NCBI RefSeq assembly: GCF_009914755.1
Contig: NC_060935.1
DNA length: 64,000 nucleotides
Origin: the human T2T-CHM13v2.0 reference genome, Homo sapiens
Reading direction: 5' to 3' (one strand)
In this document: piece after piece, positions 1,719 through 41,884 of the stretch
How positions within the stretch are numbered: the first letter of the stretch is position 1
Layout: each line of letters begins with the position of its first letter
Notes under the pieces: model-generated
The model's input: only the letters and a program-made list of their open reading frames with translations
Told to the model about the DNA's origin: nothing
Databases searched by the model: none
Translations under genes and position numbers: made by a program

Positions 1719-2140
1719 TGTATTAGTTTGTTCTTTCATTGCTGTAAAAAATACCTGAGACTGGATAATTAATAAAGAAAAAAGGTTTAACTGGCTCATG
1801 ATACTGCAGTATCTAAAGGAAGCATAGTTGCTTCTGCTTCTGGGGAGGCTTCAGGAGGCTTCCAATCACGGCAGAAGGCAAAGGGGGAGCAAGTGTCTTA
1901 CATGGCAGGAGGAGGAGCAAGAGAGAGAGAGCAGGAGGGAGGAAGTACTACACAAGTTTACATGACCAGTTCTTACAAGAACTCACTCACCATCACAGGA
2001 AGAGCACCGAGGGGATGGTGCTAAGCCATTCATGAGAATCCGCTCCCGTGATCCGGTCACCTCCCACCAGGCCCCATCTTCAACACTGGGGATTATAATT
2101 TGACATGAAATTTGGGGGGACACAGATCCAAATCATATCA
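1719..2140 (-). mobile_element. MSTA/MSTB MaLR solo LTR
   Basis: TG...CA ends; minus strand begins TGATATGATTTGGATCTGTGTCCCC; 5-bp TSD ggggg/gggag. Confidence 0.9.
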
Positions 2141-2739
2141 GGGAGCTTGCCATGAAGCCTTAAATCACCCAACCCTACTTGCTCATGGCTTCAACTCAGT
2201 AGAATGACTTCTTTTTCTTCCCTCTCATACTTCTATGGGAAAGATAAATGGCAAAAGACAACATTGTATCAAATATTTATGTATTATTTTCATTTTTGCA
2301 AGCATTTATTTTTCAAGGGTAGTTTTAGGATATACCTCATGACAGTTCATTCAGTACACATTTATGAGATGGTGCCAGCTTCTCTCCAGGCCATAGGATG
2401 GATGCTGGAGGAAGATGAAAGGGGAAAGTCAACTCAGACCCAGGCACTGTTGTAGGAGCAACCACAAACATATAGGAAGATGACTCCAGTGCAAAGGGAT
2501 GGCCAGGGACACATGGGAAGTACAGAGCTCCCAGGGAAGCTGGAGGAAGCGGCTGACTGAAACATATTTTCACTAGTAGCAGTTGCAGCCCCAGGCAAAA
2601 TTGTGAGATAAGTTTTTGTTTTTTTTTTAAATCCCTTTCCCTTCCCTCTTTTTCATTTCTTACAAATGCCAGTGCCCTTGTGCTTTTTGTACATTCCCCT
2701 GTAACTCAAAGATACTCTGAGGTCCTTTGGGCACATGCC

Positions 2740-3260
2740 ATTTATTTATTAATTAAATCAACAACCATCAAGGGCCTGCTCTGTGCTGGGTATTGGGCAC
2801 TGTTCTCACCCACCATGTAGGAAACAGCAGTGAATGTGATAAACAGGTTTCTCTGCCTACTTGAAATGTATCCCCCAGGAGAGTGAGATAGAAAATAAAC
2901 TAATAAAAAAAACCAAATTAAATTGCATGCTAAACATTTTTAAGTAGGAGTAAAGGCCATGCTGAGCATGACTGCAGGATGTTGTAGCATTGAGAGATGA
3001 AATGACCACCTCAGACAGAATGGTCAGGAAAGGCCTCTCTGAAGAGGGAACATTTGAGCAAACACCTGAATACAAGGATCCAGGAACCCAGTGTTCTAGA
3101 AACAGAAAGTGTATAAGGACTCCGAGGCAGAAGTGAGTTTTGTGTTTGAGGAATAGAAAAAAAGACAATGTGTTACAGAGAGAGGAAGCACAAAGGGATG
3201 AAGTTAGAGAGGCAGAGAGTAATTTGAATGTGATAAAGTGCGTGAAAAGCCATTGGAGGG
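2740..3260 (-). mobile_element. L2 LINE 3' fragment
   Basis: Degenerate L2 3' motifs (tgtgctgggtattgggcactg; ggaaaggcctctctgaagagggaacatttgagc). Confidence 0.65.
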
Positions 3261-4231
3261 TTCAATGCCCGCAGCAGTGCAGTGTTTCCCCTTTTAGGAC
3301 ATTTGCCTTTATGTATTTTACTTGCTAAACAAAGTGTGCCTGAGTACTTTTTGAATGCTACCGCAGATTCCCGTACAGTGCCAGGCAGATAGCAAATGCT
3401 CAGTGAATAGTTGTTCATCGATTGAGCAAGGATCAAACCAAAAACTAAAGCCACAGATGCCTGATGGTAGAATATCAGGCATTTCACCCAAGATAGAATA
3501 CCTGGGGGGATTGTAGTCCTTCAGGCTTCAGTAGTACAGTAGCCTGTACTACTTCAGATTGTAGTCTCAGGGGGCACACTGTGAACGGCCATTGCCCATG
3601 GATCACAAAAGCCTGGCTCTCATTTCCTTTTTCACAGGCCTTAGGCATTCAGCCTTCTCTTTGTTCTCTTTCTAGCTTCCCCCCATCATTTGGGCCCCCC
3701 TGTCCCGGCATCCCTGGCTACAGAGTCTCCCCTGCTCCTCGTAATTCTGCTGACCCCATAGAAAGACATAGGCCTGCCTCATTGAATAGTAGAACTATTA
3801 AGAACTGAAAGGAAAACAACACAAACAGCAAAGATGGGAACATGTTGTGAGGAGTCTTTCCAAAATGTTTCTTCTCATTTCTCTTGGTAGATTTGGGGAG
3901 CCTGTCTTCATTTATTCCTTCTGCAATTGTCCTGGTTACACAAGGGTAATAAACTGGGGAAACCTTCATCTTTTTAATTCAAATGCTATTTTTCATTAAA
4001 TTGTCCCTGAAGGAGATTGACAAAGGGCTTAGGCTGTTCTTGACCCTGTGTTCTGTAGACTTTGGCTAAATATGCTGCAAAAGCTTGCCTGCCATGTGAT
4101 TACATGAGAACAATTCATTCTTTCCTTCCTCAAAACCAGAGAAAGCTCAACCTTCCATCTGGATTCTAAACAGTTGTCAAAAATTCACTCTTCAATTCTC
4201 CTGTTTTTGTCAGCAGGAAAATGGTGGGAAG

Positions 4232-4660
4232 TATTGAAGAAATATTAAAAACACAATCTGAACCCAACACAGAAAACCTTTTCACAAAAGTAGAAGATAA
4301 ATAAAAGTTTTATTATTGAATAAGCATTAGCACAAAAAGTGATGCACACCAGAGGCAATCTGCTGAAGAGATTACAGAGGCAGAAAGAAATCTCACTGTT
4401 TTATACAGCCAAATGGGTACAACCATTCCATTTATGTTTTCAAGATAAATTTGCTAATTTTCTCCTATGTTTATAACTGCAGGTAGGTTGTGCGATTAGG
4501 AGTCAGTTGACAACTGAAGTTAGGTCTATCTTCTTCCAGAAAAACTGAGACATAGGGCATTTTTCTTGATGATTATATTTCAAAGAGATGGCTCTCATGT
4601 CTTTGAAGAAACTTGTCTGAGTTGTAAGATTGGCAAGAACTTTATTTAACATTTGCCTTA
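4232..4660 (-). mobile_element. ERV1-class LTR, MER34/MER39-like (partial)
   Basis: tttcaaagagatggctc...ttgtaagattggcaaga and aagttttattattgaataagcatta; antiparallel homology to 49600-50136. Confidence 0.7.
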
Positions 4661-5044
4661 TAATAGGCATTTGGGATCCTTTTGAGGCCAGTTTTGCTAG
4701 GTTAAAGAGTAGGTCCCTTAGACATATTCCAGAATTGGGTGCTAGCTCAAACATGTGACCTTTCTACCTTGCCAGAAGTTCAAAATTTTAGTGCTCTCAC
4801 AGAGCTCTTACTACAAGTATCCCAGTCAGTCACACACAATCCCTTTTAGAACTATTTCTAGAAAATATATTGAAAAGCAATATTTGCTCAATTTGCTGAA
4901 ATAAAGATGACAAAATCTCTTTCCTTATCATATCTCTCCTCCAACTTAGGAGAGTAATCCGAGGACAGTTTCTCCCAGGAAGTTTCCTTCTTCCAACTAT
5001 ACAGGACTAAACAGATAAACAGGACTCTGAATCTCAGCTGGGAA

Positions 5045-5180
5045 TCCCTGAGTGCTTGGACTTCCGAGGATGAAGATCTGGATCTGAATCCCAACTCTTC
5101 CCTCACCATTAGAATAATAATTAATATGTCGGGGCTTCACTTGTATCATCTGTCAAAGGAGGATAATAATTGTTGTGCCC
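5045..5180 (+). mobile_element. MIR SINE fragment
   Basis: ctggatctgaatcccaactct...gcttcacttgtatcatctgtcaaaggaggataataat resembles the MIR core. Confidence 0.6.
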
Positions 5181-6689
5181 CTCACATGTTTTCCATCTTT
5201 GCCCAGACAATTTCCCTTCTTTGTATGGGTTTCCACTGAATGCTTTCTTTTATAATACTTTACACTTCATTTTAAGCTCATTGTGCCTATAGCTGTTAAC
5301 TTGCCTGTCTTGCCATACTGTTAGGACAGGGGACTTATTTATTGCTTATTTTTCAGGGCTCCTTATAAATGGGATTTAAAGAACTTGTGAAAGCTTGAAT
5401 GAATCTGCTTGTTTGTGTGATCATAAGATGGAACATTATACCCAAGTAAAGTTCCTGGCACACATGGTGCCTCCTCTGCCTTTCTTTGGAGCTAAGACCT
5501 TTTGAGCTGTGCTTCTTTCCTCTACAAAAACATCTTTGAGCATTTCCTTACCCACCACTGGTGCTCTTATTCCTTAGACTACAAATACCCTAAGATGAAG
5601 TAGGTTCTTCCAAAACAGTCATTATTGATTCAAATGCCATTTGCAGCCAGGAAATTAGCCTATCCTCTTCCAGAAGGTTTTCTTTCAGCCAGGAGCTTGA
5701 ATAAATAGGTTTTCCTGCTTATTTATCTATTAACAAAACAATCAAATTAATATCTTATTTCAGGAACATTTCATTTAGTCAAAATATTAAGTTAGTTTGG
5801 AAAAGGAGAAAAAAAAAACACGAGGAAAGAGAGTTTGGGTAAGTTATTTTCTCAGTCTGCAAGCTTTCCCTGGATGGGATTTTTCCATATCACTGGCTTG
5901 CTTGGGGCAGTGGAGAGGAAGGCTCAGTGAGGTGATGCTGACACTTGCAAGGCCCAAGAGAACCATATTTCCACCATGAGATTTGCTGTTTGGAAATACA
6001 GTTACTGATCATTCTGATATTGTAAATACTGTTTGCTAGCTTCTTCCTGAACTACAGGTAAGTGCACACTTACTTTAAACATTAGTAGGAATATTTAAGA
6101 GGTTCTGGTCCCACAGGATGTTCAAGAATTCAAAGGAACAGATGAGCATTTGCATAATCTTCCATGTAGAAGACAGCAGTCAGAGTTAATTTTTAATTTA
6201 TTTCCCTCCAGAGAAAATATCTCCTGATAACTCTTGATTAGCAGACAATGAGGTTCAGTAAAATCATTTAGAAGTTTGGAGCAAAAAAAAAAAAAAAAAA
6301 AATCCAAAGTTTCTGATGATAAAGGGAAAGTAAACATCCAAGAAATGACCTTTTTAAAAAAATTCCAAACTTGGGTGAATGAGTGGTATAGAAATACAAG
6401 GTTTGCATTGTAGACATCACCAAATAGCGCATTTGAATTTGCGGAACTGTCTCTCCTGCTTTGGTATAACCCTGTTCTACAGCTCATTAAATTAAAAAAT
6501 GCAAGAATAGGTCTTTAATTACTTGAGAAGATATTGCTGGTGATTTTTTCCTATCTCTAGTTATAGGAATTCTTTCATATTTTAAAAATAGAATAAATTA
6601 ATCATAAGACTATTCCACGATTTTGGCTGCTGTGCCTGTGCAAATGACTATTTTGGAGAAAAGCAATTAAACTCTAGCCTTTTTCTTTC

Positions 6690-28710: not shown

Positions 28711-29149
28711 CAGTAAAAAAAGCAAACAAAAAATGATAAGGTTAAGGTTATATACATTTTGAGTAACATAGTCAATAGTTTGTTCTAATGAACATTTACT
28801 AACTTGGTACTCTAAAGAAAGAAATATTATTTCCAATTACACATGGTTCATTGATAAATATTGACTGTGTGCTAGGGCATAAAGTAAAACTTAATGAAAA
28901 CCAGACATCAATATCTTATAAACCATGTTTTATGATTGCAGTATATTTAAGTTAGAAATCAATAATTAAAAGCTAACTACCCTCAATAAAATAGATTTTT
29001 CAAATACATGTTGCTAAATAATATGTTGATTAAATAATGATTATTAAATTTAAAAATACTTAGATTGTAATGAAAATAAAATACTATAAAAATGTATACA
29101 GATACATTATATTTACTATTATATTTACAATCTAATCCTCAAAACGAAA

Positions 29150-32100
29150 TGCCATGTATACATATCACATTTTCTTTATCCACTCATTGGTTGTTGGGCT
29201 CTTAGGTTGATTTCATATCTTTGCAATTGTGAATTGTGCTGTGATAAACATGCACATGCAGGTATCTTTTTGATATAATAACTTTTTTCCTTTGGATAGA
29301 TACCCAGTAGTGTGTTTCTGAATCAAATGATGAATCTATTTTTAATTCTTTGAGAAATTTCCATATTGTTTTCCATGAGATTGCACTAGTTTACATGCCC
29401 TCCAGTAGTGTGTAAGTGTTCCCTTTTGACCATATCTGTGCCAGTATCTATTTGTTTCCTGACTTTTAATTAATGACCATTCTGGCTGAGGTAAGGTGGT
29501 ATCTCACTGTGGTTTTAATTTGCATTTCCCTGATGATTAGTGATGATGAGCATTTTTCATATGTTTTTTGGTCATTTGTGTATCTTCTTTTAAGAAATGT
29601 CTGTTCATGTCATTTGTCCACTTTTTAATGGGATTTGTTTTTCTTGCTCATTTGTTTGAGTTCCTTGTAGATTCTGAACACTAGTCCTTTGTCAGAGGCA
29701 TGGTTTGCAAGTATTTTTTTTCCATTCTGTAGATTGTCTATTCATTGATTATTGTTTTGCTATGCAAAAGGTTTCTTTTTTTTAAATTAGGTCCCATTTA
29801 CTTGTTTTTGTTACACTTGGTTTTGGGGTCTTAGTCGTAAATTTATTCCTAGGCCAATGTCTAGAATAGTTTTTCCTAGGGTTTCTTCTGGAATTTTTAT
29901 GGTTTCAGGTATTAGGCTAAATCTTTAATCCATCTTGAATTAATTTTGTGTATGGTGAAACTTATGGATCTAGTTTCATTCTTCTACATACAGCTAGCCA
30001 GTTATCCCAGTACCATTTATTGAATAGGGAGTCCTTTCCTCATGCTTGTTGTTGTCAAGAATCAGATGCTTGACAAAAACATCTGTCAAAGATCAGATAA
30101 CCTGTCAAAGATCAGATGGTTATAGGTGTGCAGCTTTATTTCTTGGTTCTCTGTGCTGTTCTGTTGGTATATGGGCCTGTTTTGTACCAGTACCATGCTG
30201 TTTTGGTTACTGTAGCCTTATAGTATAGTTTGAAGTTGGATAGTGTGATGGCTTTGACTTTGTTCTTTTTGCTTAGGGTTGCTCTGGCTATTAAGGCTCA
30301 TTTTTGGTTCCACATGAATTTTAGAATAGTTTTTTTCTAATTCTGTGAAGAATGACACTGGTAGCTTGATAGGAATAACATTGAATCTGTAAGTTGCTTT
30401 GCACAGTATGCTTATTTTAATAATACTGATTCTTCCAATACATGAGCATGGAATATTTTTCCATTTATTTGTGTCATTTCTGATTTTTACAGCAATTTTT
30501 TGTAGTTCTCTTTATAGTGATCTTTCACTTACTTGGTTAGATGTAGTCCTACATATTTCATTTTTTGGTGTGTTTATTTTAAATGGGATTGTGTTCTTAA
30601 TTTGACTTTCTGCTTGAACATTATTGGTGTATAGAAATGCTACTGATTTTCGTACATTGATTTTGTATACTGAAACTTTACTAAAGTTGTTAATAAGTTC
30701 TAGGAGCTTTTTGGAAGAGTCTTTAGGATTTTCTAAGTATAGAATCATATTGTCAGCAAAGACAGAAAGTTTGTTTTTCTTTTGTTATGTGCATGTCTTT
30801 TATTTATTTCTCTTGCTTGATTGCTCTGGGTAGGACTTCCAGTGCTATGTTGAATAAGAGTGGTGAGAGTTGCCATCTTTGTATTGTTCCAGTTCTCAAG
30901 GGGAATGGTTCCAGCTTTTGCCTATTCAGTATGATGTCAGCTGTGGGTTCTTCATAGATGGCTTTCATTGTTTTGGGGTGTATTCCCTTGGTGCTTAGTC
31001 TGTTGAGGCTTTTTATCATAAAGGGATGTTGTATTTTTATCAAAGGCTTTTTCTGCATTGAGATGATCATATAGTTTTGCTTTTAGTTCTGTTCTTGTGG
31101 TGAATCACATTTATTGACTTGCATGTGTTGAACCAGGCTTGGATCCCAGGAATGAAACCAATTTGATTGAGGTGAATTAACTTTTCTATGTGCTGCTGGA
31201 TTCAGTTTGCTAGTATTTTGTTGAGGATGTTTGCCTCTATGTTCATCAGGGATATTGGACTAAAGTTTCTTTTTTTTATTGTGTCTTTGCTAGATTTTGT
31301 TATCAATCTGATTCTGGCTTCATAGAAGCTGTTAGGGAGGAGGCCCTCCTCCTCAATATTTTGGAATAGTTTCAGTAGAATTAGTACCAGTACTTCTGTA
31401 TAGATCTTGTAGAATTTGGCTGTGATTCCATCTGGTTCAGAGCTTTTTTTGTTTTCTAGTTTTTTTTTTTAATTTATTACTGCTTCAGTTTTTAACTTAT
31501 AATTGGTCTGTTCAAGTTTTCACTTTCTTCCTGTTCCAATATTGGGAGGTCAAATGTTTCCAGGAATTTATCCATTTCCTCTAGATTTTCTAACTTGTGT
31601 GCATACAGTTGTTCATAATGGCCTCTGATGATATTTTGTATTGTTGTGCAGTCTGTTGTTATATCATTTTTGTAATTTCTGATTGTACTTATTTGGATAT
31701 TCTCTTTTTTTTCTGTGTTAATCTAGCTAATGGTCTATCAATTTTACTTATTATTTTGAAAAACAAAATTTTTGGTTTTATTGATCTTTTGTATGTATTT
31801 TTGTGTCTCAGTTTTATTTAGTTATTTATCTAATTTTAGTTAATTATTTTCTTCTGCTAGCTTTAGGGTTTATTTGTTCTTTTTTTTTCTCTAGATTGTA
31901 TAGGTGCAACATTAGCTTGTTAATTTTAGATCTTCCTAACTTCTTGATGAGGCATTTAGCATTACAAAACTTTCCTCTTAACACTGCTTTAGATGTATCC
32001 CCAATATTTTGTAAATTGTATCCTTATTTTCATTAATTTCAATTTAAAATAATTTCTGCTTAAATTTTATTGTTCACTCAGCAGCAAATTGTTTAATTTT

Positions 32101-34230
32101 CATGTATTTGTGTAGTTTTGAGAAAACTTTTTGATGTTGACTTTTATATTTAATATGCTGTGGTCTGAGAGTGTGCTTGGTATGATTTGAACTTTTTAGA
32201 ATTTATTGAGCCTTGCTTTATGACTGAGCATATGGTCATTCTTAGACAATGTTCCATGTGCAGGTGAGAAGAATGTATACTCTGTGGTTGTTGGGTGTAG
32301 TATTCTGTAGATGTCTATTAGGTCCGATTGGTCAAGTGTTGTGTTTAATTCCAGAATCTCTTTGTTAGTTTTCTTCTTTGATGACATGTCAAATGCTGTC
32401 AGGAGGTGTTAAAGTCTTCCACTATTATTGTTTGGCTGGCTAAATGTTTTCATAGGTGAAGAGGACTTGTTTTATGAATTGGGTGCCACATTGCTTGCAC
32501 ATTTTTATTTAGGATAGCCAAGCCTTCTTGTGAATGGAGCCCTTTATCATTATGTCATGTTCTTCTTTGTCCCTTCTGATTGTTGTTTTAAAGGCTGTTT
32601 TTTATCTGATATACTTCCAGTTGCATTATATAGTTCTTGTAATGAAGTTTTCAGTTCCAGAAGTTCAGCTGGGTTCTTTCTTAAAATGGCTATTTTGTGT
32701 TTGGCTTCAGATCATTTTGCTAGATTTTTTGGATTGGGTTTTAACTTTCTCCCTAATCTTGATGAGCTTTCTTACCATCCAGATTCTGATTTCTATGGCT
32801 GTTATTTCAATCATTTCAGTCTCATTAAGGATCTTTGCTGGGGAGCTAGTGGGTGCATTTGAAGGTAAGGGAACACTCTGGCATTTTGAATAGCTGGGGT
32901 TCTTGTGCTGAGTCTTTCTCATCTAGGAGGGCCGGTGTTCTTTTAATTGTGGTGTAATTTGAGTACAGTCAGTTGTATTCAATTCTAGATGCTTCCAGAG
33001 GGTCAAGGGTCTGTACAGGATTTTTATTCGTTACTGGATTCTTGCCCTTGGTTATCACAGGGTGCATATTAGCGGAGTATTTTCTGGTGGTGTAGTTTGA
33101 GCTTCCTTCCAGTACATGGCACTTAGGACTAATGGCCAATAGATAGGCTCTTAGCTTCGTGACTCTTGTATTTCCTCACATTCACAGGCATGCTTTGCAT
33201 TTGAGGTGGGAGTGAGTTGACCCTCTCACCAGTCTCCTGGGCCTTGGAGGAGAGCACACTGATTACTCGTGCTGCACCACATTTATTTTGTTAGGTGCTT
33301 TAGGCTGTGTGCTCCCTCAGGTGGAGGCCCTGGCAGAGAGATAGGGTACATCCTTTCTGGGCTGGCCCTGTGGATGGAGAAATGCCCACTCCCATCATGA
33401 GCCATGAACCCATTTATCTTACCCCTCTCAGTACTCTGAGAATGAGGGCTCCTCCTCTGCTCAAGTGTCAGCCGCAGATCTTGGCTTGGCACCCTTGAGC
33501 TGTACAACATAGCCCTGGGGTGCTGGGTCTGGCCTGCAGCTTAGGGTTGAGCTCCAGCTGTGCTGGGGCATCTAAAGTGCTCCCAGGTCACCAGGAAAGT
33601 ACTCAGATGGAGCAAAGCCTTCAGGCTGGGCAATGGAGGCTGCACTGTGCACAATGCTCCTGTGACGGCCAAGAGGGGGCCCCGGGATGGGCTGACAGGC
33701 AGAAGGGCCTATAGAACAGACATGCTTCAGTCCCATGGGGATGCTGATCCCACTGTCTCCTGGCCTGGCAGTCAGTTGGGGCTAGAGCTTCTTAGAGTGA
33801 GGGGGAAGCTCTGGGGGATGGGTGCTAATGATCGTACTTCCCCGAAGCTGTCCACATGCAAAAGTCCATGGGCTCTTTGCTGCCTGAAGCCTTGTCTCTG
33901 CCTATTCTCTGGGAAGATCTCCCTGCCAGCTCAGATGCCCATGGGGCATGTGGGGTCCCCCGTAGGTAGGATCTCAGAGGTCTGCAGTGAGAGTAGGCTG
34001 TGCCTCAGTTCCTTCACTCACCCCTTCCCCAGGAGCCATTCAGCTACCCTGTGCAGGATTCCCAGCTTCCTCTCTCTCTATTTTTAGAATCTGCATCATC
34101 TCACCATCCAATAAGTATTTTCTCTCTGAAGATCCGCTCAAGTAATTTTGGTTTACCTGATATTTTGTTCTCTCTCAGTGGGAGTGGCACTTCTTGGCTG
34201 TGTGTAGTTGGCCATCTTGTCCCCCTCTTC
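29150..34230 (-). mobile_element. L1PA15/16-L1PB-like LINE-1 with 5'UTR, an internal deletion at ~32613 and no 3' end
   Basis: ORF2 remnants (30512-30748, 30804-31070, 32196-32387), ORF1 N-terminus (32707-32922), 5' end GGGGACAAGATGGCCAACTA on the minus strand. Confidence 0.88.
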
Positions 34231-34360
34231 CATATATGGCTTTCATTATTTGATGTGTTTTCCTTCTGTGCCTAGTTTGTTGAGGGTTTTTATCATAAAA
34301 CGATGCTGGATTTTATCGAATGCTTATTCTGCATATATTGAAAATGATCATATGATTTTT
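34231..34360 (-). mobile_element. L1PB-like ORF2 (RT-region) fragment
   Basis: atggctttcattat..ttgagggtttttatcataaaacgatgctggattttatcgaatgc..gatcatatgatttttg. Confidence 0.75.
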
Positions 34361-34618
34361 GTTTTTTTTTTTTATTTTTTTTTATTTTTTTTTAAAATGT
34401 TTTCTTTTTTGTTATTATACTCTAAGTTTTAGGGTACATGTGCACATTGTGCAGGTTAGTTACATATGTATACATGTGCCATGCTGGTGCGCTGCACCCA
34501 CTAACGTGTCATCTAGCATTAGGTATATCTCCCAATGCTATCCCTCCCCCCTCCCCCGACCCCACCACAGTCCCCAGAGTGTGATATTCCCCTTCCTGTG
34601 TCCATGTGATCTCATTGT

Positions 34619-38433
<3,815 letters not shown>

Positions 38434-38496
38434 TATGATGTTAGCTGGATATTTTGCTTGTTAGTTGATGCAGTTTCTTCCTAGCATGGATGGTCT

Positions 38497-39495
38497 TTAC
38501 TATTTGGCATGTTTTTGCAGTGGCTGGTACTGGTTGTTCCTTTAGGAGCTCTTTTAGGGCAGGCCTGGTGGTGACAAAATCTCTCAGCATTTGCTTGTTC
38601 TATAAGGTATTTTATTTCTCCTTCGCTTGTGAAGCTTAGTTTGGCTGGATATGAAATTCTGGGTTGAAAATTCTTTTCTTTAGGAATATTGAATATTGGC
38701 CCCCACTCTCTTCTTCCTTGTAGAGTTTCTGCAAAAAGATCCTCTGTTAGTCTGATGGGCTTCCCTTTGTGGGTAACCCGACCTTTCTCTCTGGCTGCCC
38801 TTAACATTTTTTCCTTCATTTCAACTTTGGTGAATCTGACAATTATGTGTCTTGGAGTTGCTCTTCTCAAAGAGTATCTTTGTGGCGTTCTCTGTATTTC
38901 CTGAATTTGAATGTTGGCCTGCCTTGCTAGACTGGGGAAGTTCTCCTGGATAATAAACTGCAGAGTGTTTTCCAGCTTGATTCCACTCTCCCTGTCACTT
39001 TCAGGTACACCAATCAGATGTAGATTTGGTCTTTTCACATAGTCCCATATTTCTTGGAGACTTTATTCATTTCTTTTTATTCTTTTTTGTCTAAACTTCT
39101 CTTCTTGCTTCATTTCATTCATTTGATCTTCCATCACTGATACCCTTTCTTCCAGTTGATCAAATCGGCTACTGAGGCTTGTGCATTCGTCACGTAGTTC
39201 TCATGCTGTGGTTTTCAGCTCCATCAGGTCCTTTAAGGACTTCTCTGCATTGGTTATTCTACTTAGCCATTCATCTAATTTTTTTCAAGGTTTTTACCTT
39301 CTTTACCATGGGTTCGAACTTCCTCCTTTAGCTCAGAGTAGTTTGATCCTCTGACGCCTTCTTCTCTTAACTTGTCAAAGTCGTCCTCCATCCAGCTTTG
39401 TTCTGTTGCTGGTGAGGAGCTGCGTTCCTTTGGAGGAGGATAGGCGCTGTGATTTTTAGAGTTTCCAGTTTTTCTGCTCTGTTTTTTCCCCAAGT
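38497..39495 (-). pseudogene. L1 ORF1, disrupted (start codon lost, stops/frameshifts, ~20-bp deletion near the C-terminus)
   Basis: GKKQSRKTGNSK...; KRPNLHLIGVPE...RISYPAKLSF; ccacaaacttgggg in place of ccacaaagatgggg. Confidence 0.9.
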
Positions 39496-41884
39496 TTGTG
39501 GTTTTATCTACCTTTGGTCTTTGATGATGGTGGTGTACAGACAGGGTTTTGGTGTCAATGTCCTTTCTGTTTGTTAGTTTTCCTTCTAACAGGCAGGACA
39601 CTCAGCTGCAGGTCTGTTGGAGTTTGCTGGAGGTCCACTCCAGACCCTGCGTGCCTGGATATCAGCAGCGGAGGCTGCAGAATAGCAGATATTGGTGAGC
39701 AGCAAATGTTGCTGCCTGATCGTTCCTCTGGAAGTTTTGTCTCAGAGGAGTACCCAGCCATGTGAGGTATCAGTCTGCCCCTACTGGGGAGTGCCTCCCA
39801 GTTAGGCTACTCAGGTCTCAGGGACCCACTTGAGTAGGCAGTCTGTCCATTCTCAGATCTCCAGCTGAGTGCTGGGAGAACCACTACTCTCTTCAAAGCT
39901 GTCAGACAGGGTCATTTAAGTCTGCAGAGGTTTCTGCTGCCTTTTGTTTGGCTATGCCCTGCCACCAGAGGTGGAGTCTACAGAGGCAGGCAGGCCTCCT
40001 TGAGCTGCAGTGGGCTCCACCCAGTTCGAGCTTCCCGACCGCTTTGTTTACCTACTGAAGCCTCGGAAATGGCGGGCGCCCCTCTCGCAGCCTTGCTGCC
40101 CCTTGCAGTTTGATCTCAGACTGCTGTGCTAGCAATGAGCGAGGCTCCGTGGGTGTAGAACCCTCCGAGCCATGTGCGGGATATAATCTCCTGGTGTGCC
40201 GTTTGCTAAGACCATTGGAAAAGTGCAGTATTAGGGTGGGAGTGACCCAATTTTCCAGGTGGCATCTGTCACCTCTTTCTTTGACTAGGAAAGGGAATTC
40301 CCTGACCCCTTATGCTTCCTTGGTGAGGTGGTGCCTCGCCCTGCTTCAGCTCACACTCGGTGCACTGCACCCACTGTCCTGCACCCACTGTCTGACACTC
40401 CTCTGTGAGATGAACCCAGTTCCTCAGTTGGAAATGCAGAAATCACCCATCTTCTGTGCCGCTCATGCTGGGAGCTGTAGACTGGAGCTGTTCATATTCG
40501 GCCATCTTGGCTCCACCCATAATGTTTGTCTTTCTGCACCTGGCTTATTTCACTTAGCATACTGACCTCCATTTCCCCCCATGTTGTTGCAAATGACTGA
40601 GTCTTCTTTTTAAAATATTTTTTATGGTTGATTGGTACTCTATTCTGTGTAAGTACCATGTTTTCTTTATCCATTTATCTGTTTTTGGACACATAGTTTG
40701 CTTCCAAATCTTGGCCATTGTGAACAGGGGTACAATAAACATGGGAGTGCAGATATCTCTTTGATGTACTGATTTCCTTTCTTTGGGGTGTACCCAGCAA
40801 TAGGACTCCTGGATCATATGGTAGCTCTATTTTTAGCTTTTTAAGGAACCTCCAAACTGTTCTCCATAGTAGTTGTACTAACTTGCATTCCCACCAATAG
40901 TGTATGAGGGTCCCCTTTTCTCCACATTCTCACCAGCATTTGTTAAGCCATTTTAACTGGGGTGAGATTATATTTTATTGTAGTTTTGGTTTGTGTTTCT
41001 TTATTATTAATGATGTTGAGCAGATTTTTATAAGTCTATTTGCCATTTGTATGTCTTCTTTTGAGAAATGTCTATTGAAATTTTCTGTTCATTTTTTGAT
41101 CAGATGATTAGATTTTTTCCTGTAGAGCTATTTGAGCTCCTTATATGTTCTAGTTGTTAATCCCTTGTCAGAGGGATAGTTAGCAAATATTGTATCCTAT
41201 TCTGTGGGTTGTCTCTTCACTTTTTTGGTTGTTTCCTTTTCTGTGTAGAAGCTGTTTAATTTGAGGTGATCCCGTTTGTTCATTTTTGCTTTTGTTTCCT
41301 GTGATTGTGGGGTATTACTCAAGAAATCTTTGGCCAAACCAATATCCTGGAGAGTTTCCTCAATGTTTTATTGTAGTAGTTTCATAGTTTGAAATCAGAT
41401 TTATGTCTTTCATTCATTTTGATTTGATTTTTGTATATGGCAAGAGGTAGGGGTCTAGTCTTATTCTTTTTACCACTGTATGTTCTTGGTACCTTTGTTA
41501 AAAATGAGTTCATTGTAGGTGTGTGGATTTGTTTCTGGATTTTCTATTCTATTCCATTGTTCTATGTGTCTGTTTCTATGCCAGGACCAAGCTGCTTTTG
41601 TTATTATAGATTTGTAGCATAATTTGAAGTCAGGTAATGCAATTCCTCCAGTTTTGTTCTTTTTGCTTAACATAGCTTTGGCTATTCTGGGTCTCCTGTG
41701 GTTCCATATAAATTTTAGGATAGGTTTTTCTATTTTTGTGAGGAATGTTATTGGTATTTTGATAGGGATTGCATTGAATCTGTAGATTGCTTTGGGTACT
41801 ATGGGCATTTTAACAATGTGAATTATTCCAATCCATAAACATAAAATATCTATTTTTGGGTGTCATCTTCAATTTCTTTCATAG

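What the first reader, a model, noticed from the sequence alone, without database searches (positions are those of the whole stretch)
34340..40535. Chimeric L1: human-specific pre-Ta 3' end on an old L1PA4-like body, with mismatched flanks (probable L1-insertion-mediated deletion)
Seen: 34412 to ~35100 matches L1HS as I recall it, with CpGs intact. On the minus strand it reads GATGAC-ACG-TTAG (pre-Ta ACG, 34505-34507), CTTAGAG (G at 34422) and GGGGTCGGGG. From ~35106 onward, private substitutions, frameshifts and older diagnostics accumulate, and the 5'UTR keeps the 129-bp segment that L1PA2/L1HS lack. The 3' flank is an L1PB ORF2 fragment. The 5' flank is an L1MA 3'UTR whose distal part is absent, and there is no clean TSD. 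Established: ACA marks Ta, ACG pre-Ta and GAG older L1s; nascent L1 cDNA can anneal to a nearby genomic L1, producing chimeras with target-site deletion. Inference: an L1HS primed at the T-tract near 34360 and resolved into the resident L1PA4, deleting the DNA between them. The event would be human-specific and possibly polymorphic. The alternative is gene conversion of the 3' end plus an unrelated older deletion.
Basis: partly seen in the sequence, partly recalled or inferred. Interest (0 to 1): 0.85.

Follow-up and report, generated by a model that had tools for sequence, protein, structure and literature searches.

The report
Old L1 with young L1 end
An ancient, decayed L1 retrotransposon on human chromosome 11 has had its last ~700 bases and tail replaced by a pristine human-specific L1, most likely when a new L1 copy landed just downstream and fused into it, deleting the DNA between: a known kind of event, seen here as a clean natural example.

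Summary
On the minus strand, window 34414-35104 (691 bp) has no mismatch to 9 of 9 fetched young L1 copies that carry ACG/G in the 3'UTR. From 35105 upstream the element differs from every other genomic copy by 6-9%. It keeps a 128-bp 5'UTR block that young copies lack, has lost most CpGs and is full of stops.

The flanks do not match. The 5' flank is the start of an older L1's 3'UTR, and its distal part is absent from the window. The 3' flank is an ORF2 reverse-transcriptase fragment of another older L1. It starts exactly at a TT|AAAAA endonuclease site.

The poly(A) tail carries an A-run/G/CATT signature. That signature is shared with other young copies, so the tail came with the young L1. 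This argues against plain gene conversion.

Best reading (about 0.62): a pre-Ta L1 primed at that site and its cDNA resolved into the resident old L1, deleting the intervening DNA.

Rivals:
- recombination between two separate L1s;
- tail-end replacement plus an unrelated older deletion.

The decisive ape and pangenome comparison could not be run. The mechanism is already known, so interest is modest.

The parts
40519..41836 (-). 5' flank: end of ORF2 and start of the 3'UTR of an older L1. It continues upstream, with interruptions, to about 45668, and ends in ...AAAGACAAACATTATG.
   Evidence: 67% identity to L1 positions 4505-5800; relatives at 78-83% identity; 12 of 12 relatives continue past this point.
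35105..40518 (-). Old resident L1 body: 5'UTR, ORF1 remnants, and ORF2 endonuclease and reverse-transcriptase remnants. It is decayed, with many stops, and the ORF1 start codon position reads CTTG.
   Evidence: Pfam: Transposase_22 and Tnp_22_dsRBD in 38484-39062, Exo_endo_phos in 37828-38460, RVT_1 in 36189-36908.
39620..39747 (-). 5'UTR block of 128 alignment columns that young L1 copies lack (the '129-bp' ZNF93-site block).
   Evidence: absent in 4 of 4 alignable young copies, present in this element and in older copy L012. PMC7110667 passages.
35053..35104 (-). Interval that most likely holds the old/young switch.
   Evidence: The last old-type or private base is 35105. At 5.8% difference per base, a mismatch-free run longer than 52 bp has p < 0.05. 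By group-diagnostic columns alone the switch lies between 35111 and 34898.
34414..35104 (-). Young L1HS pre-Ta segment: end of ORF2 plus the whole 3'UTR. It has ACG at 34507-34505 and G at 34422.
   Evidence: ORF2p comparison with solved L1 ORF2 protein.
34367..34413 (-). Poly(A) tail: proximal A-run with C and G, then CATTTT, then A9-T-A9-T and a final A run. The final run cannot be separated from the AAAAA of the flank (about 13 A in all).
   Evidence: The tail is unique as a whole in the genome.
34231..34366 (-). 3' flank: ORF2 reverse-transcriptase fragment of another older L1, beginning AAAAACAAAAATCATATGATCA at a TT|AAAAA endonuclease site.
   Evidence: 84-88% identity to many ORF2 copies.; 22 of 22 identical to the majority of 17 relatives.
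29155..34228 (-). Context only: an older full-length-type L1 whose 5' end abuts the ORF2 fragment. Its 3' end stops abruptly at about 29155 against unique DNA.

Best explanation
An L1 insertion-mediated deletion produced a chimeric L1.

The proposed sequence of events is as follows.
1. An old L1 already sat in the 3'UTR of a still older L1. It keeps the 129-bp 5'UTR block, so it is early L1PA3 or older, and here it falls in the oldest class sampled.
2. Much later, probably within the last few million years, the endonuclease of a pre-Ta L1HS nicked the bottom strand. The nick was at a TT|AAAAA site inside an ORF2 fragment of another old L1, some distance downstream on the same strand.
3. Reverse transcription of the pre-Ta RNA copied the tail, the 3'UTR and about 640-690 nt in all.
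4. The growing cDNA then paired with the homologous resident L1, in the manner of synthesis-dependent strand annealing or single-strand annealing.
5. Repair joined the two in register.

Lost in this repair were the resident element's own 3' end, tail and 3' target-site duplication, the distal 3'UTR of the older L1, and all DNA up to the new target site.

Shown: the chimera, the switch point, the young tail signature, the endonuclease site and the mismatched flanks.

Inferred: that one event made both the chimera and the deletion, and that the event is human-specific.
For: (a) Sharp switch.
- There are 0 mismatches in 691 bp to 9 of 9 young copies, against 3-12 per 100 bp upstream.
- Private non-CpG load is 0 of 652 in the 3' part and 46 of 1441 in the body (p = 4e-8).
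- CpGs kept: 8 of 8 in the 3' part, against 12 of 48 in the rest.
- Against solved L1 ORF2p (9hdo_A), I count from the printed alignment 19 differences in residues 6-152 and 3 in residues 153-330 (p = 7e-5).

(b) The body is resident and old.
- No other copy exceeds 94% identity.
- The body has the older state at 14 of 14 columns that separate the young group from both older groups. It has the oldest-group state at 4 of 6 columns that separate that group.
- It sits among the oldest comparators on the tree, on the longest branch.
- It keeps the 128-column 5'UTR block.

(c) The young tract runs to the last base of the 3'UTR and on into the tail.
- The CATT interruption after an A run is found at 35 loci with the young ...TTAGAGTATAAT end. 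Five of these are among the 40 nearest copies.
- One young copy (L094) shares the ...AAAAAAGAAAACATT tail.
- None of 7 tails from 6 oldest-class copies, and none of 12 middle-class tails printed, has it.

(d) The tail abuts an ORF2 sequence that is 22 of 22 identical to the majority of 17 relatives. Those relatives have ..GAATT just before it, which makes a consensus L1 endonuclease site.

(e) The flanks come from different old L1s, and each is native up to the junction. The distal 3'UTR of the upstream one is missing.

(f) The mechanism is in print. ACG marks pre-Ta (PMC7026601 passages). [quoted passage not shown] Gilbert 2002, Symer 2002 and Han 2005 are recalled, not read.
Against: - No ancestral allele was seen, so the deletion is inferred from the flanks alone.
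- The last 16 nt of the 5' flank resemble the first 18 nt of the 3' flank: 14 matches with a 2-nt gap. Only 5 of 463 T|AAAA sites in the window reach that score. Under this model that is a 1% coincidence.
- The tail has two T interruptions plus a C and a G. That is more change than the zero seen in the adjacent 691 bp. Part of the tail could therefore be an older tail.
- The neighbourhood has at least one other old breakpoint, the abrupt end of the downstream L1 at about 29155. Independent deletions are thus not rare here.
- The young comparator group was retrieved by identity to this very stretch. Agreement with it in the 3' part is therefore partly by construction.
Confidence: 0.62

Rival explanations
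1. Two independent events. In the first, the old L1's 3' end and proximal tail were replaced without loss of flanking DNA. This could be a pre-Ta L1 priming in the old element's own tail and resolving by homology, or gene conversion from a pre-Ta donor that included its tail. In the second, unrelated event the flank mismatch arose. This could be a target-site deletion made by the old L1's own insertion, or a microhomology-mediated deletion between its 3' duplication and the look-alike ORF2 motif.
For: - The look-alike motifs at the two junctions would be explained by a microhomology-mediated deletion.
- The distal tail (A9-T-A9-T-A run) could be an older tail.
- Gene conversion of older L1s by the Ta subfamily is reported at a rate of about 2%. 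This comes from a PMC554112 passage citing Myers 2002; Myers 2002 itself is not held.
- Another old breakpoint lies nearby.
Against: - This needs two rare events at one element.
- Classical conversion would need homology beyond the tract. Yet the young tract reaches the last diagnostic base 9 nt (34422) from the 3'UTR end (34414) and runs on into the tail signature.
- The 3' flank is ORF2-native from the endonuclease site onward, 22 of 22. It is not a copy of the 5' flank motif, so the two flanks do not carry a real duplication.
Confidence: 0.22
2. Non-allelic homologous recombination. A pre-Ta L1 of at least 700 bp first inserted normally, with its own duplications, at the ORF2 site downstream. 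Later it recombined with the resident old L1 in the same orientation, deleting everything between them.
For: - It gives the same end product as the best explanation: a seamless in-register switch, the young tail and endonuclease site and mismatched flanks.
- 73 L1 recombination-associated deletions are reported for the human lineage (PMC3362811 passage citing Han 2008; Han 2008 is not held).
Against: - It needs an insertion and then a recombination within the short life of a segment that shows 0 changes in 691 bp. At an assumed 1e-9 per site per year, P(0) is 0.13 for 3 My and 0.016 for 6 My.
- The partners are only about 94% alike.
- By my own rough prior, which rests on recalled rates, this is several-fold less likely than one-step resolution.
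Confidence: 0.1
3. Assembly artefact: a collapse or mis-join between two L1 copies in the assembly.
For: No call bears on it directly. L1-rich DNA is a classic site for such errors.
Against: - The junction is in register and the flanks are unique, ordinary sequence.
- The body has no near-identical copy elsewhere from which it could have been mis-joined.
- The tail is unique in the genome.
Confidence: 0.03

Closest known systems
Chimeric L1s and L1 insertion-mediated deletions (cultured-cell work of Gilbert et al. 2002 and Symer et al. 2002; the human/chimpanzee survey of Han et al. 2005). All three are recalled; none is held in the library.
   Same: A new L1 3' end and tail at an endonuclease site, fused in register to a resident L1 upstream. 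There is no target-site duplication, and the flanks were not neighbours before.
   Different: Here the pre-insertion allele has not been seen. The size of the loss is therefore unknown, and the event is inferred rather than observed.
L1 recombination-associated deletions (Han et al. 2008; 73 human events, as cited in PMC3362811).
   Same: One chimeric L1 stands where two same-strand L1s stood, and the intervening DNA is lost.
   Different: Those events join two L1s that are both present in the chimpanzee. Here one partner would be a human-specific insertion, and the 3' partner shows 0 changes in 691 bp.
Gene conversion of pre-existing L1s by young L1s (Myers et al. 2002, cited in PMC554112), and Alu 'gene conversion with loss of 3' flank' (locus Ye5AH27 in PMC554112, where 142 bp were lost).
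   Same: An old element acquires the diagnostic 3' bases of a young subfamily. The Alu case also loses flanking DNA, which makes it the closest analogue.
   Different: The tract here runs through the end of the element into a lineage-specific tail. The flanks also come from different repeats, which plain conversion does not produce.

Membership tests
L1HS pre-Ta (3' segment) | ACG at the diagnostic 3'UTR trinucleotide (ACA in Ta, GAG in L1PA2 and older) | tested here: met
   ACG at 34507-34505. The rule is taken from PMC7026601 passages. Of the 26 older-group copies that have letters at these columns, 20 read GAG, 3 AAG, 1 GGG, 1 CAG and 1 is partly gapped (--G); two more copies are gapped at all three columns.
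L1HS pre-Ta (3' segment) | G rather than A at the second 3'UTR marker near the end of the element | tested here: met
   G at 34422. All 10 young copies have G. Of the 26 older-group copies that have a letter there, 25 have A. That this position is a named subfamily marker is recalled, not read.
L1HS pre-Ta (3' segment) | Near-identity to other members | tested here: met
   689 of 689 identical to 10 other loci. All 9 copies fetched carry ACG/G.
   A 128-column block is present here and absent in 4 of 4 alignable young copies. The rule is taken from PMC7110667 passages.
   The body has the older state at 14 of 14 columns and the oldest-group state at 4 of 6. Its load is 3.19%, above all 14 oldest-group copies (1.18-2.78%). 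The tree placement agrees.
   No Dfam or RepeatMasker library is on hand. The comparator groups were defined here by their distance in the 3' part.
L1 insertion-mediated deletion with chimeric L1 | The new L1's 3' end and poly(A) abut an L1 endonuclease site | tested here: met
   Relatives of the 3' flank read ..GAATT|AAAAACAAAAATC. The window has poly(A) up to that point and is then 22 of 22 identical.
L1 insertion-mediated deletion with chimeric L1 | No target-site duplication; the flanks were not contiguous before | tested here: met
   Each flank is native to a different old L1 up to the junction. The resemblance between them is 14 of 16 with a gap, at p of about 0.01. The distal 3'UTR is missing.
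L1 insertion-mediated deletion with chimeric L1 | A pre-insertion allele in an outgroup, or in other humans, holds the deleted DNA | not testable with these tools
   No primate or pangenome sequence is reachable. The papers listing such loci are not held.
Plain gene conversion between L1 copies | The converted tract lies inside sequence shared by donor and recipient, and the flanks are untouched | tested here: inconclusive
   The tract reaches the last marker at 34422 and the lineage-specific tail signature, which speaks against this. Untouched flanks cannot be tested without an outgroup.

The most novel reading that the evidence does not exclude
A human-specific, possibly still polymorphic, germline example of one-step chimeric L1 formation. 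A pre-Ta L1 cDNA primed at a canonical endonuclease site and resolved by homology into an old L1 upstream. This erased at least the old element's 3' end and the rest of the older L1's 3'UTR, and probably kilobases of ancestral DNA, within an intron of a predicted lncRNA near RAB38. Both L1 junctions lie in look-alike AAA(G/A)ACAAA.. motifs. If that is more than chance, it would hint that target motif or microhomology guides where such resolutions end.
Probability: 0.55. Interest if true: 0.4.

Novelty: new member of a known kind. Interest (0 to 1): 0.3.

Why it matters
Chimeric L1s with loss of target DNA were first seen in cultured cells. Well-resolved germline examples show that the same repair route shapes real human genomes and removes sequence. 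Such elements are also a practical trap. Subfamily callers and 3'-end-based L1HS profiling would score this locus as a young L1HS insertion, although 5.4 kb of it is ancient and dead. If the event is polymorphic, it is a deletion allele that short reads would miss. No gene, exon or annotated functional element is touched, so the biological consequence is probably nil.

Tried and rejected
(1) Recent insertion of an already chimeric RNA, or template switching onto an old L1 transcript. Rejected: the body has no copy above 94% identity anywhere in the genome.

(2) 3' transduction as the source of the odd tail. The 31-nt end-plus-tail string occurs only here, even with 2 mismatches allowed. The tail is instead a variant of a tail signature shared by young copies.

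(3) A real but decayed target-site duplication, which would mean untouched flanks. Rejected.
- The first 12 nt of the 5' copy, AAAGACAAACAT, read as in most of the 12 relatives of the upstream L1's 3'UTR.
- The 3' copy is 18 of 18 identical to the majority ORF2 motif of 17 relatives.
- They differ from each other exactly where the two native motifs differ.

(4) The 128-bp ORF2 fragment being part of the downstream old L1 (a 5' transduction or family feature). No genomic match spans the junction between them, among the 42 matches listed (40 of 3667 candidates scored). This stays open but does not change the reading.

(5) An in-register nested insertion of a truncated young L1 inside the old one. 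Rejected: the sequence after the tail is not the old element's own 3' end. It is an ORF2 reverse-transcriptase fragment only 72-74% like L1PA copies.

(6) Looking for the missing distal 3'UTR elsewhere in the window. The only hits are Alu sequences carried by two query loci, plus short homologous stretches in other L1s.

(8) Papers that list such loci or describe L1 conversion are not held: Han 2005, Han 2008 and Myers 2002. A search for 'gene conversion' + 'preTa' + 'LINE-1' found 0 papers. Whether this locus is already in print could therefore not be checked, and supplements of those papers could not be seen.
Full report
**What is there.** The element lies on the minus strand. It runs from its 5' end at about 40518 to the end of its poly(A) tail at about 34367. 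Pfam finds the expected L1 domains in the broken frames. These are the ORF1 RNA-binding domains in 38484-39062, the endonuclease in 37828-38460 and the reverse transcriptase in 36189-36908. Stop-to-stop frames show ORF1 and ORF2 split into many pieces. Only the last 330 codons of ORF2 (34619-35611) are open.

**The switch.**
- Window 34412-35100 was searched against the window's own genome. All 40 matches scored, of 872 candidates, are listed at 100% rounded identity. Ten other loci match all 689 bases perfectly.
- Against the nine copies fetched, there is no mismatch from 34414 to 35104 in 9 of 9. The first mismatches, at 35105, 35111 and 35120, are shared by 9 of 9. Upstream there are 3-12 mismatches per 100 bp in the copies that reach that far.
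- The body, 35106-40516, finds no copy better than 91-94% identity among 40 scored of 32,353 candidates. So it is not a recent copy of anything. It has sat here for a long time.

**Comparator groups.** I sorted 37 comparators by their distance to the element in the 3' part. The groups are young (10 copies: 9 ACG and 1 ACA, all with G), middle (13) and oldest (14). One further copy, L025, reaches only 38 bases of the 3' part; it was left out of the three groups and of the column counts and was added to the oldest group, making 15, only for the tree.
- In the body, the element has the older state at 14 of 14 columns that set the young group apart from both others. It has the oldest-group state at 4 of 6 columns that set that group apart.
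- In the 3' part, it has the non-oldest state at 13 of 13 columns and the young-only state at 5 of 5.
- The last count is partly by construction. Nine of the ten young copies were retrieved by identity to this very stretch. The body result is not circular.

**Mutation load, CpGs, tree and protein.**
- At columns where all three groups agree, the body has 46 of 1441 non-CpG differences (3.19%). That is more than any of the 14 oldest-group copies (1.18-2.78%). The 3' part has 0 of 652 (Fisher p = 4e-8).
- CpG sites of the young copies are kept at 8 of 8 in the 3' part, 1 of 10 in 35105-36595 and 11 of 38 in the 5'UTR (p = 9e-5).
- A tree of the body region puts the element among the oldest comparators, on the longest terminal branch.
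- An independent reference is the solved human L1 ORF2 protein, chain 9hdo_A. From the printed alignment I count 19 differences in residues 6-152 and 3 in residues 153-330 (p = 7e-5).

**Identity of the two parts.**
- ACG at 34507-34505 marks L1HS pre-Ta. ACA marks Ta, and GAG marks L1PA2 or older (PMC7026601, passages).
- The 5'UTR keeps a 128-column block (about 39620-39747). The block is absent from 4 of 4 alignable young full-length copies and present in one older copy. A fifth young copy has an inverted 5' end and did not align.
- A 129-bp deletion became fixed within L1PA3 and all later lineages (PMC7110667, passages). The body is therefore early L1PA3 or older.
- I cannot confirm the name L1PA4. 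By load and tree position it may be as old as L1PA5-6.

**Flanks.**
- A self-comparison maps an older L1 upstream on the same strand, from 45668 down to 40536, covering L1 positions about 1859-5800.
- Its last bases...CAGAAAGACAAACATTATG, belong to the start of its 3'UTR. Twelve of 12 relatives carry the same motif and run on for about 390 more bases.
- No match to that distal part lies next to the element. The only distal-part matches anywhere in the 64-kb window are 29-64-nt hits to its first 65 nt, inside other L1 copies; the rest of the hits are Alu sequences carried by two query loci.
- Downstream of the tail lies a 128-136-bp piece of the ORF2 reverse-transcriptase region of another older L1. 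It is 84-88% identical to many copies.
- Next comes the 5' end of yet another old L1. That one stops abruptly at about 29155 against unique DNA.

**The apparent duplication.**
- The 16 nt before the element (AAAGACAAACATTATG) and the 18 nt after the tail (AAAAACAAAAATCATATG) look alike: 14 matches with a 2-nt gap. Only 5 of 463 T|AAAA sites in the window score as well.
- Each copy is nevertheless native to its own context. The first 12 nt of the 5' copy, AAAGACAAACAT, read as in most of the 12 relatives of the upstream 3'UTR.
- The 3' copy, with the next four bases, is 22 of 22 identical to the majority of 17 relatives of the ORF2 fragment.
- The two copies differ exactly where the two native motifs differ. 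It is therefore not a true duplication.
- In the ORF2 relatives the motif is preceded by ..CAGAATT. The tail thus begins at a TT|AAAAA site, which is the consensus L1 endonuclease target (the consensus itself is established knowledge, recalled).

**The tail.**
- After ...AGTATAATAA the tail reads C, A6, G, A4, CATTTT, A9, T, A9, T and then a final A run that cannot be separated from the AAAAA of the flank. As a whole it is unique in the genome.
- An A run followed by CATT and more A's stands behind the young-type end (...TTAGAGTATAAT) at 35 distinct loci. These are 70 overlapping matches that I collapsed by hand. Two of the nine fetched young copies are among them, as are five of the 40 nearest copies.
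- It stands behind the older-type end (...TTAAAGTATAAT) at 14 loci, 10 of them with an uninterrupted A run.
- One young copy (L094) has two differences in the 691 bp and shares the G-interrupted form ...AAAAAAGAAAACATT.
- None of the 7 tails from 6 oldest-class copies, and none of the 12 middle-class tails printed, has CATT.
- The proximal tail therefore came in with the young L1.

**Mechanism.** The young tract runs from the switch (35104-35053, by the run-length argument) through the last marker at 34422 and into a lineage-specific tail. It then meets a consensus endonuclease site in DNA that was not the old element's neighbour.
- That is what target-primed reverse transcription of a pre-Ta RNA at this site would leave, if the cDNA paired with the resident homologous L1 upstream and repair removed what lay between.
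[quoted passage not shown] The original cell-culture papers are recalled, not read.
- Plain gene conversion is disfavoured. The tract leaves no homologous L1 sequence on its 3' side.

**What remains open.**
- Recombination between the old L1 and a separately inserted pre-Ta L1 gives the same product. I rate it lower on recalled rates only.
- A two-event history also fits: replacement of the 3' end by priming in the old element's own tail, plus an older deletion. It needs two rare events, but it could explain the look-alike motifs through microhomology. I give it about 0.2.

**Age.** Zero changes in 691 bp relative to the modal young sequence gives P(0) = 0.13 for 3 My and 0.016 for 6 My. This assumes 1e-9 substitutions per site per year, which is my assumption. 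The figures fit a human-specific event but do not prove one.

**What could not be done.** No ape or pangenome sequence is reachable. The papers with locus lists are not held. I therefore cannot say whether this locus is already described, whether it is polymorphic, or how much DNA was lost.

**Verdict.** This is a real and cleanly resolved chimeric L1. The kind of event is known, and nothing functional is touched.

Noticed in passing
window 29100-29200 (minus strand): The older L1 downstream of the finding stops abruptly inside the end of ORF2 at about 29155. It is joined to AT-rich unique DNA with no 3'UTR or tail. This is a second, old breakpoint in the same neighbourhood.
   Followed up: partly
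window 40519-40534 and 34349-34366: Both junctions of the chimeric L1 lie in look-alike AAA(G/A)ACAAA(C/A)AT..ATG motifs. The motifs belong to two different old L1 regions (3'UTR start and ORF2 RT). The chance of this is about 1% and the reason is unknown.
   Followed up: yes
own genome, 35 loci listed and 14: A heritable tail signature: an A run, then CATT, then an A run, directly behind the L1 3' end. It marks a lineage that spans older-type (A) and young-type (G) 3'UTR ends. Tails of this kind could serve as lineage markers for source elements.
   Followed up: partly
L076 (own genome, contig 14): A young L1 with the same 3' end has an inverted 5' portion. Antisense 5'UTR sequence is joined to sense ORF1, as expected from twin priming.
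   Followed up: no
L077 (own genome, contig 14): Another young full-length L1 sits inside an older L1's ORF2 reverse-transcriptase region. Its 5' end lies about 60 nt downstream of the same AAAGACAAAAACCACATGATCA motif.
   Followed up: no
window 39491-39494: At the position of the ORF1 start codon the old body reads CTTG, where 3 of the 4 aligned young copies have GATG and L073 has a gap, GAT-G.
   Followed up: no
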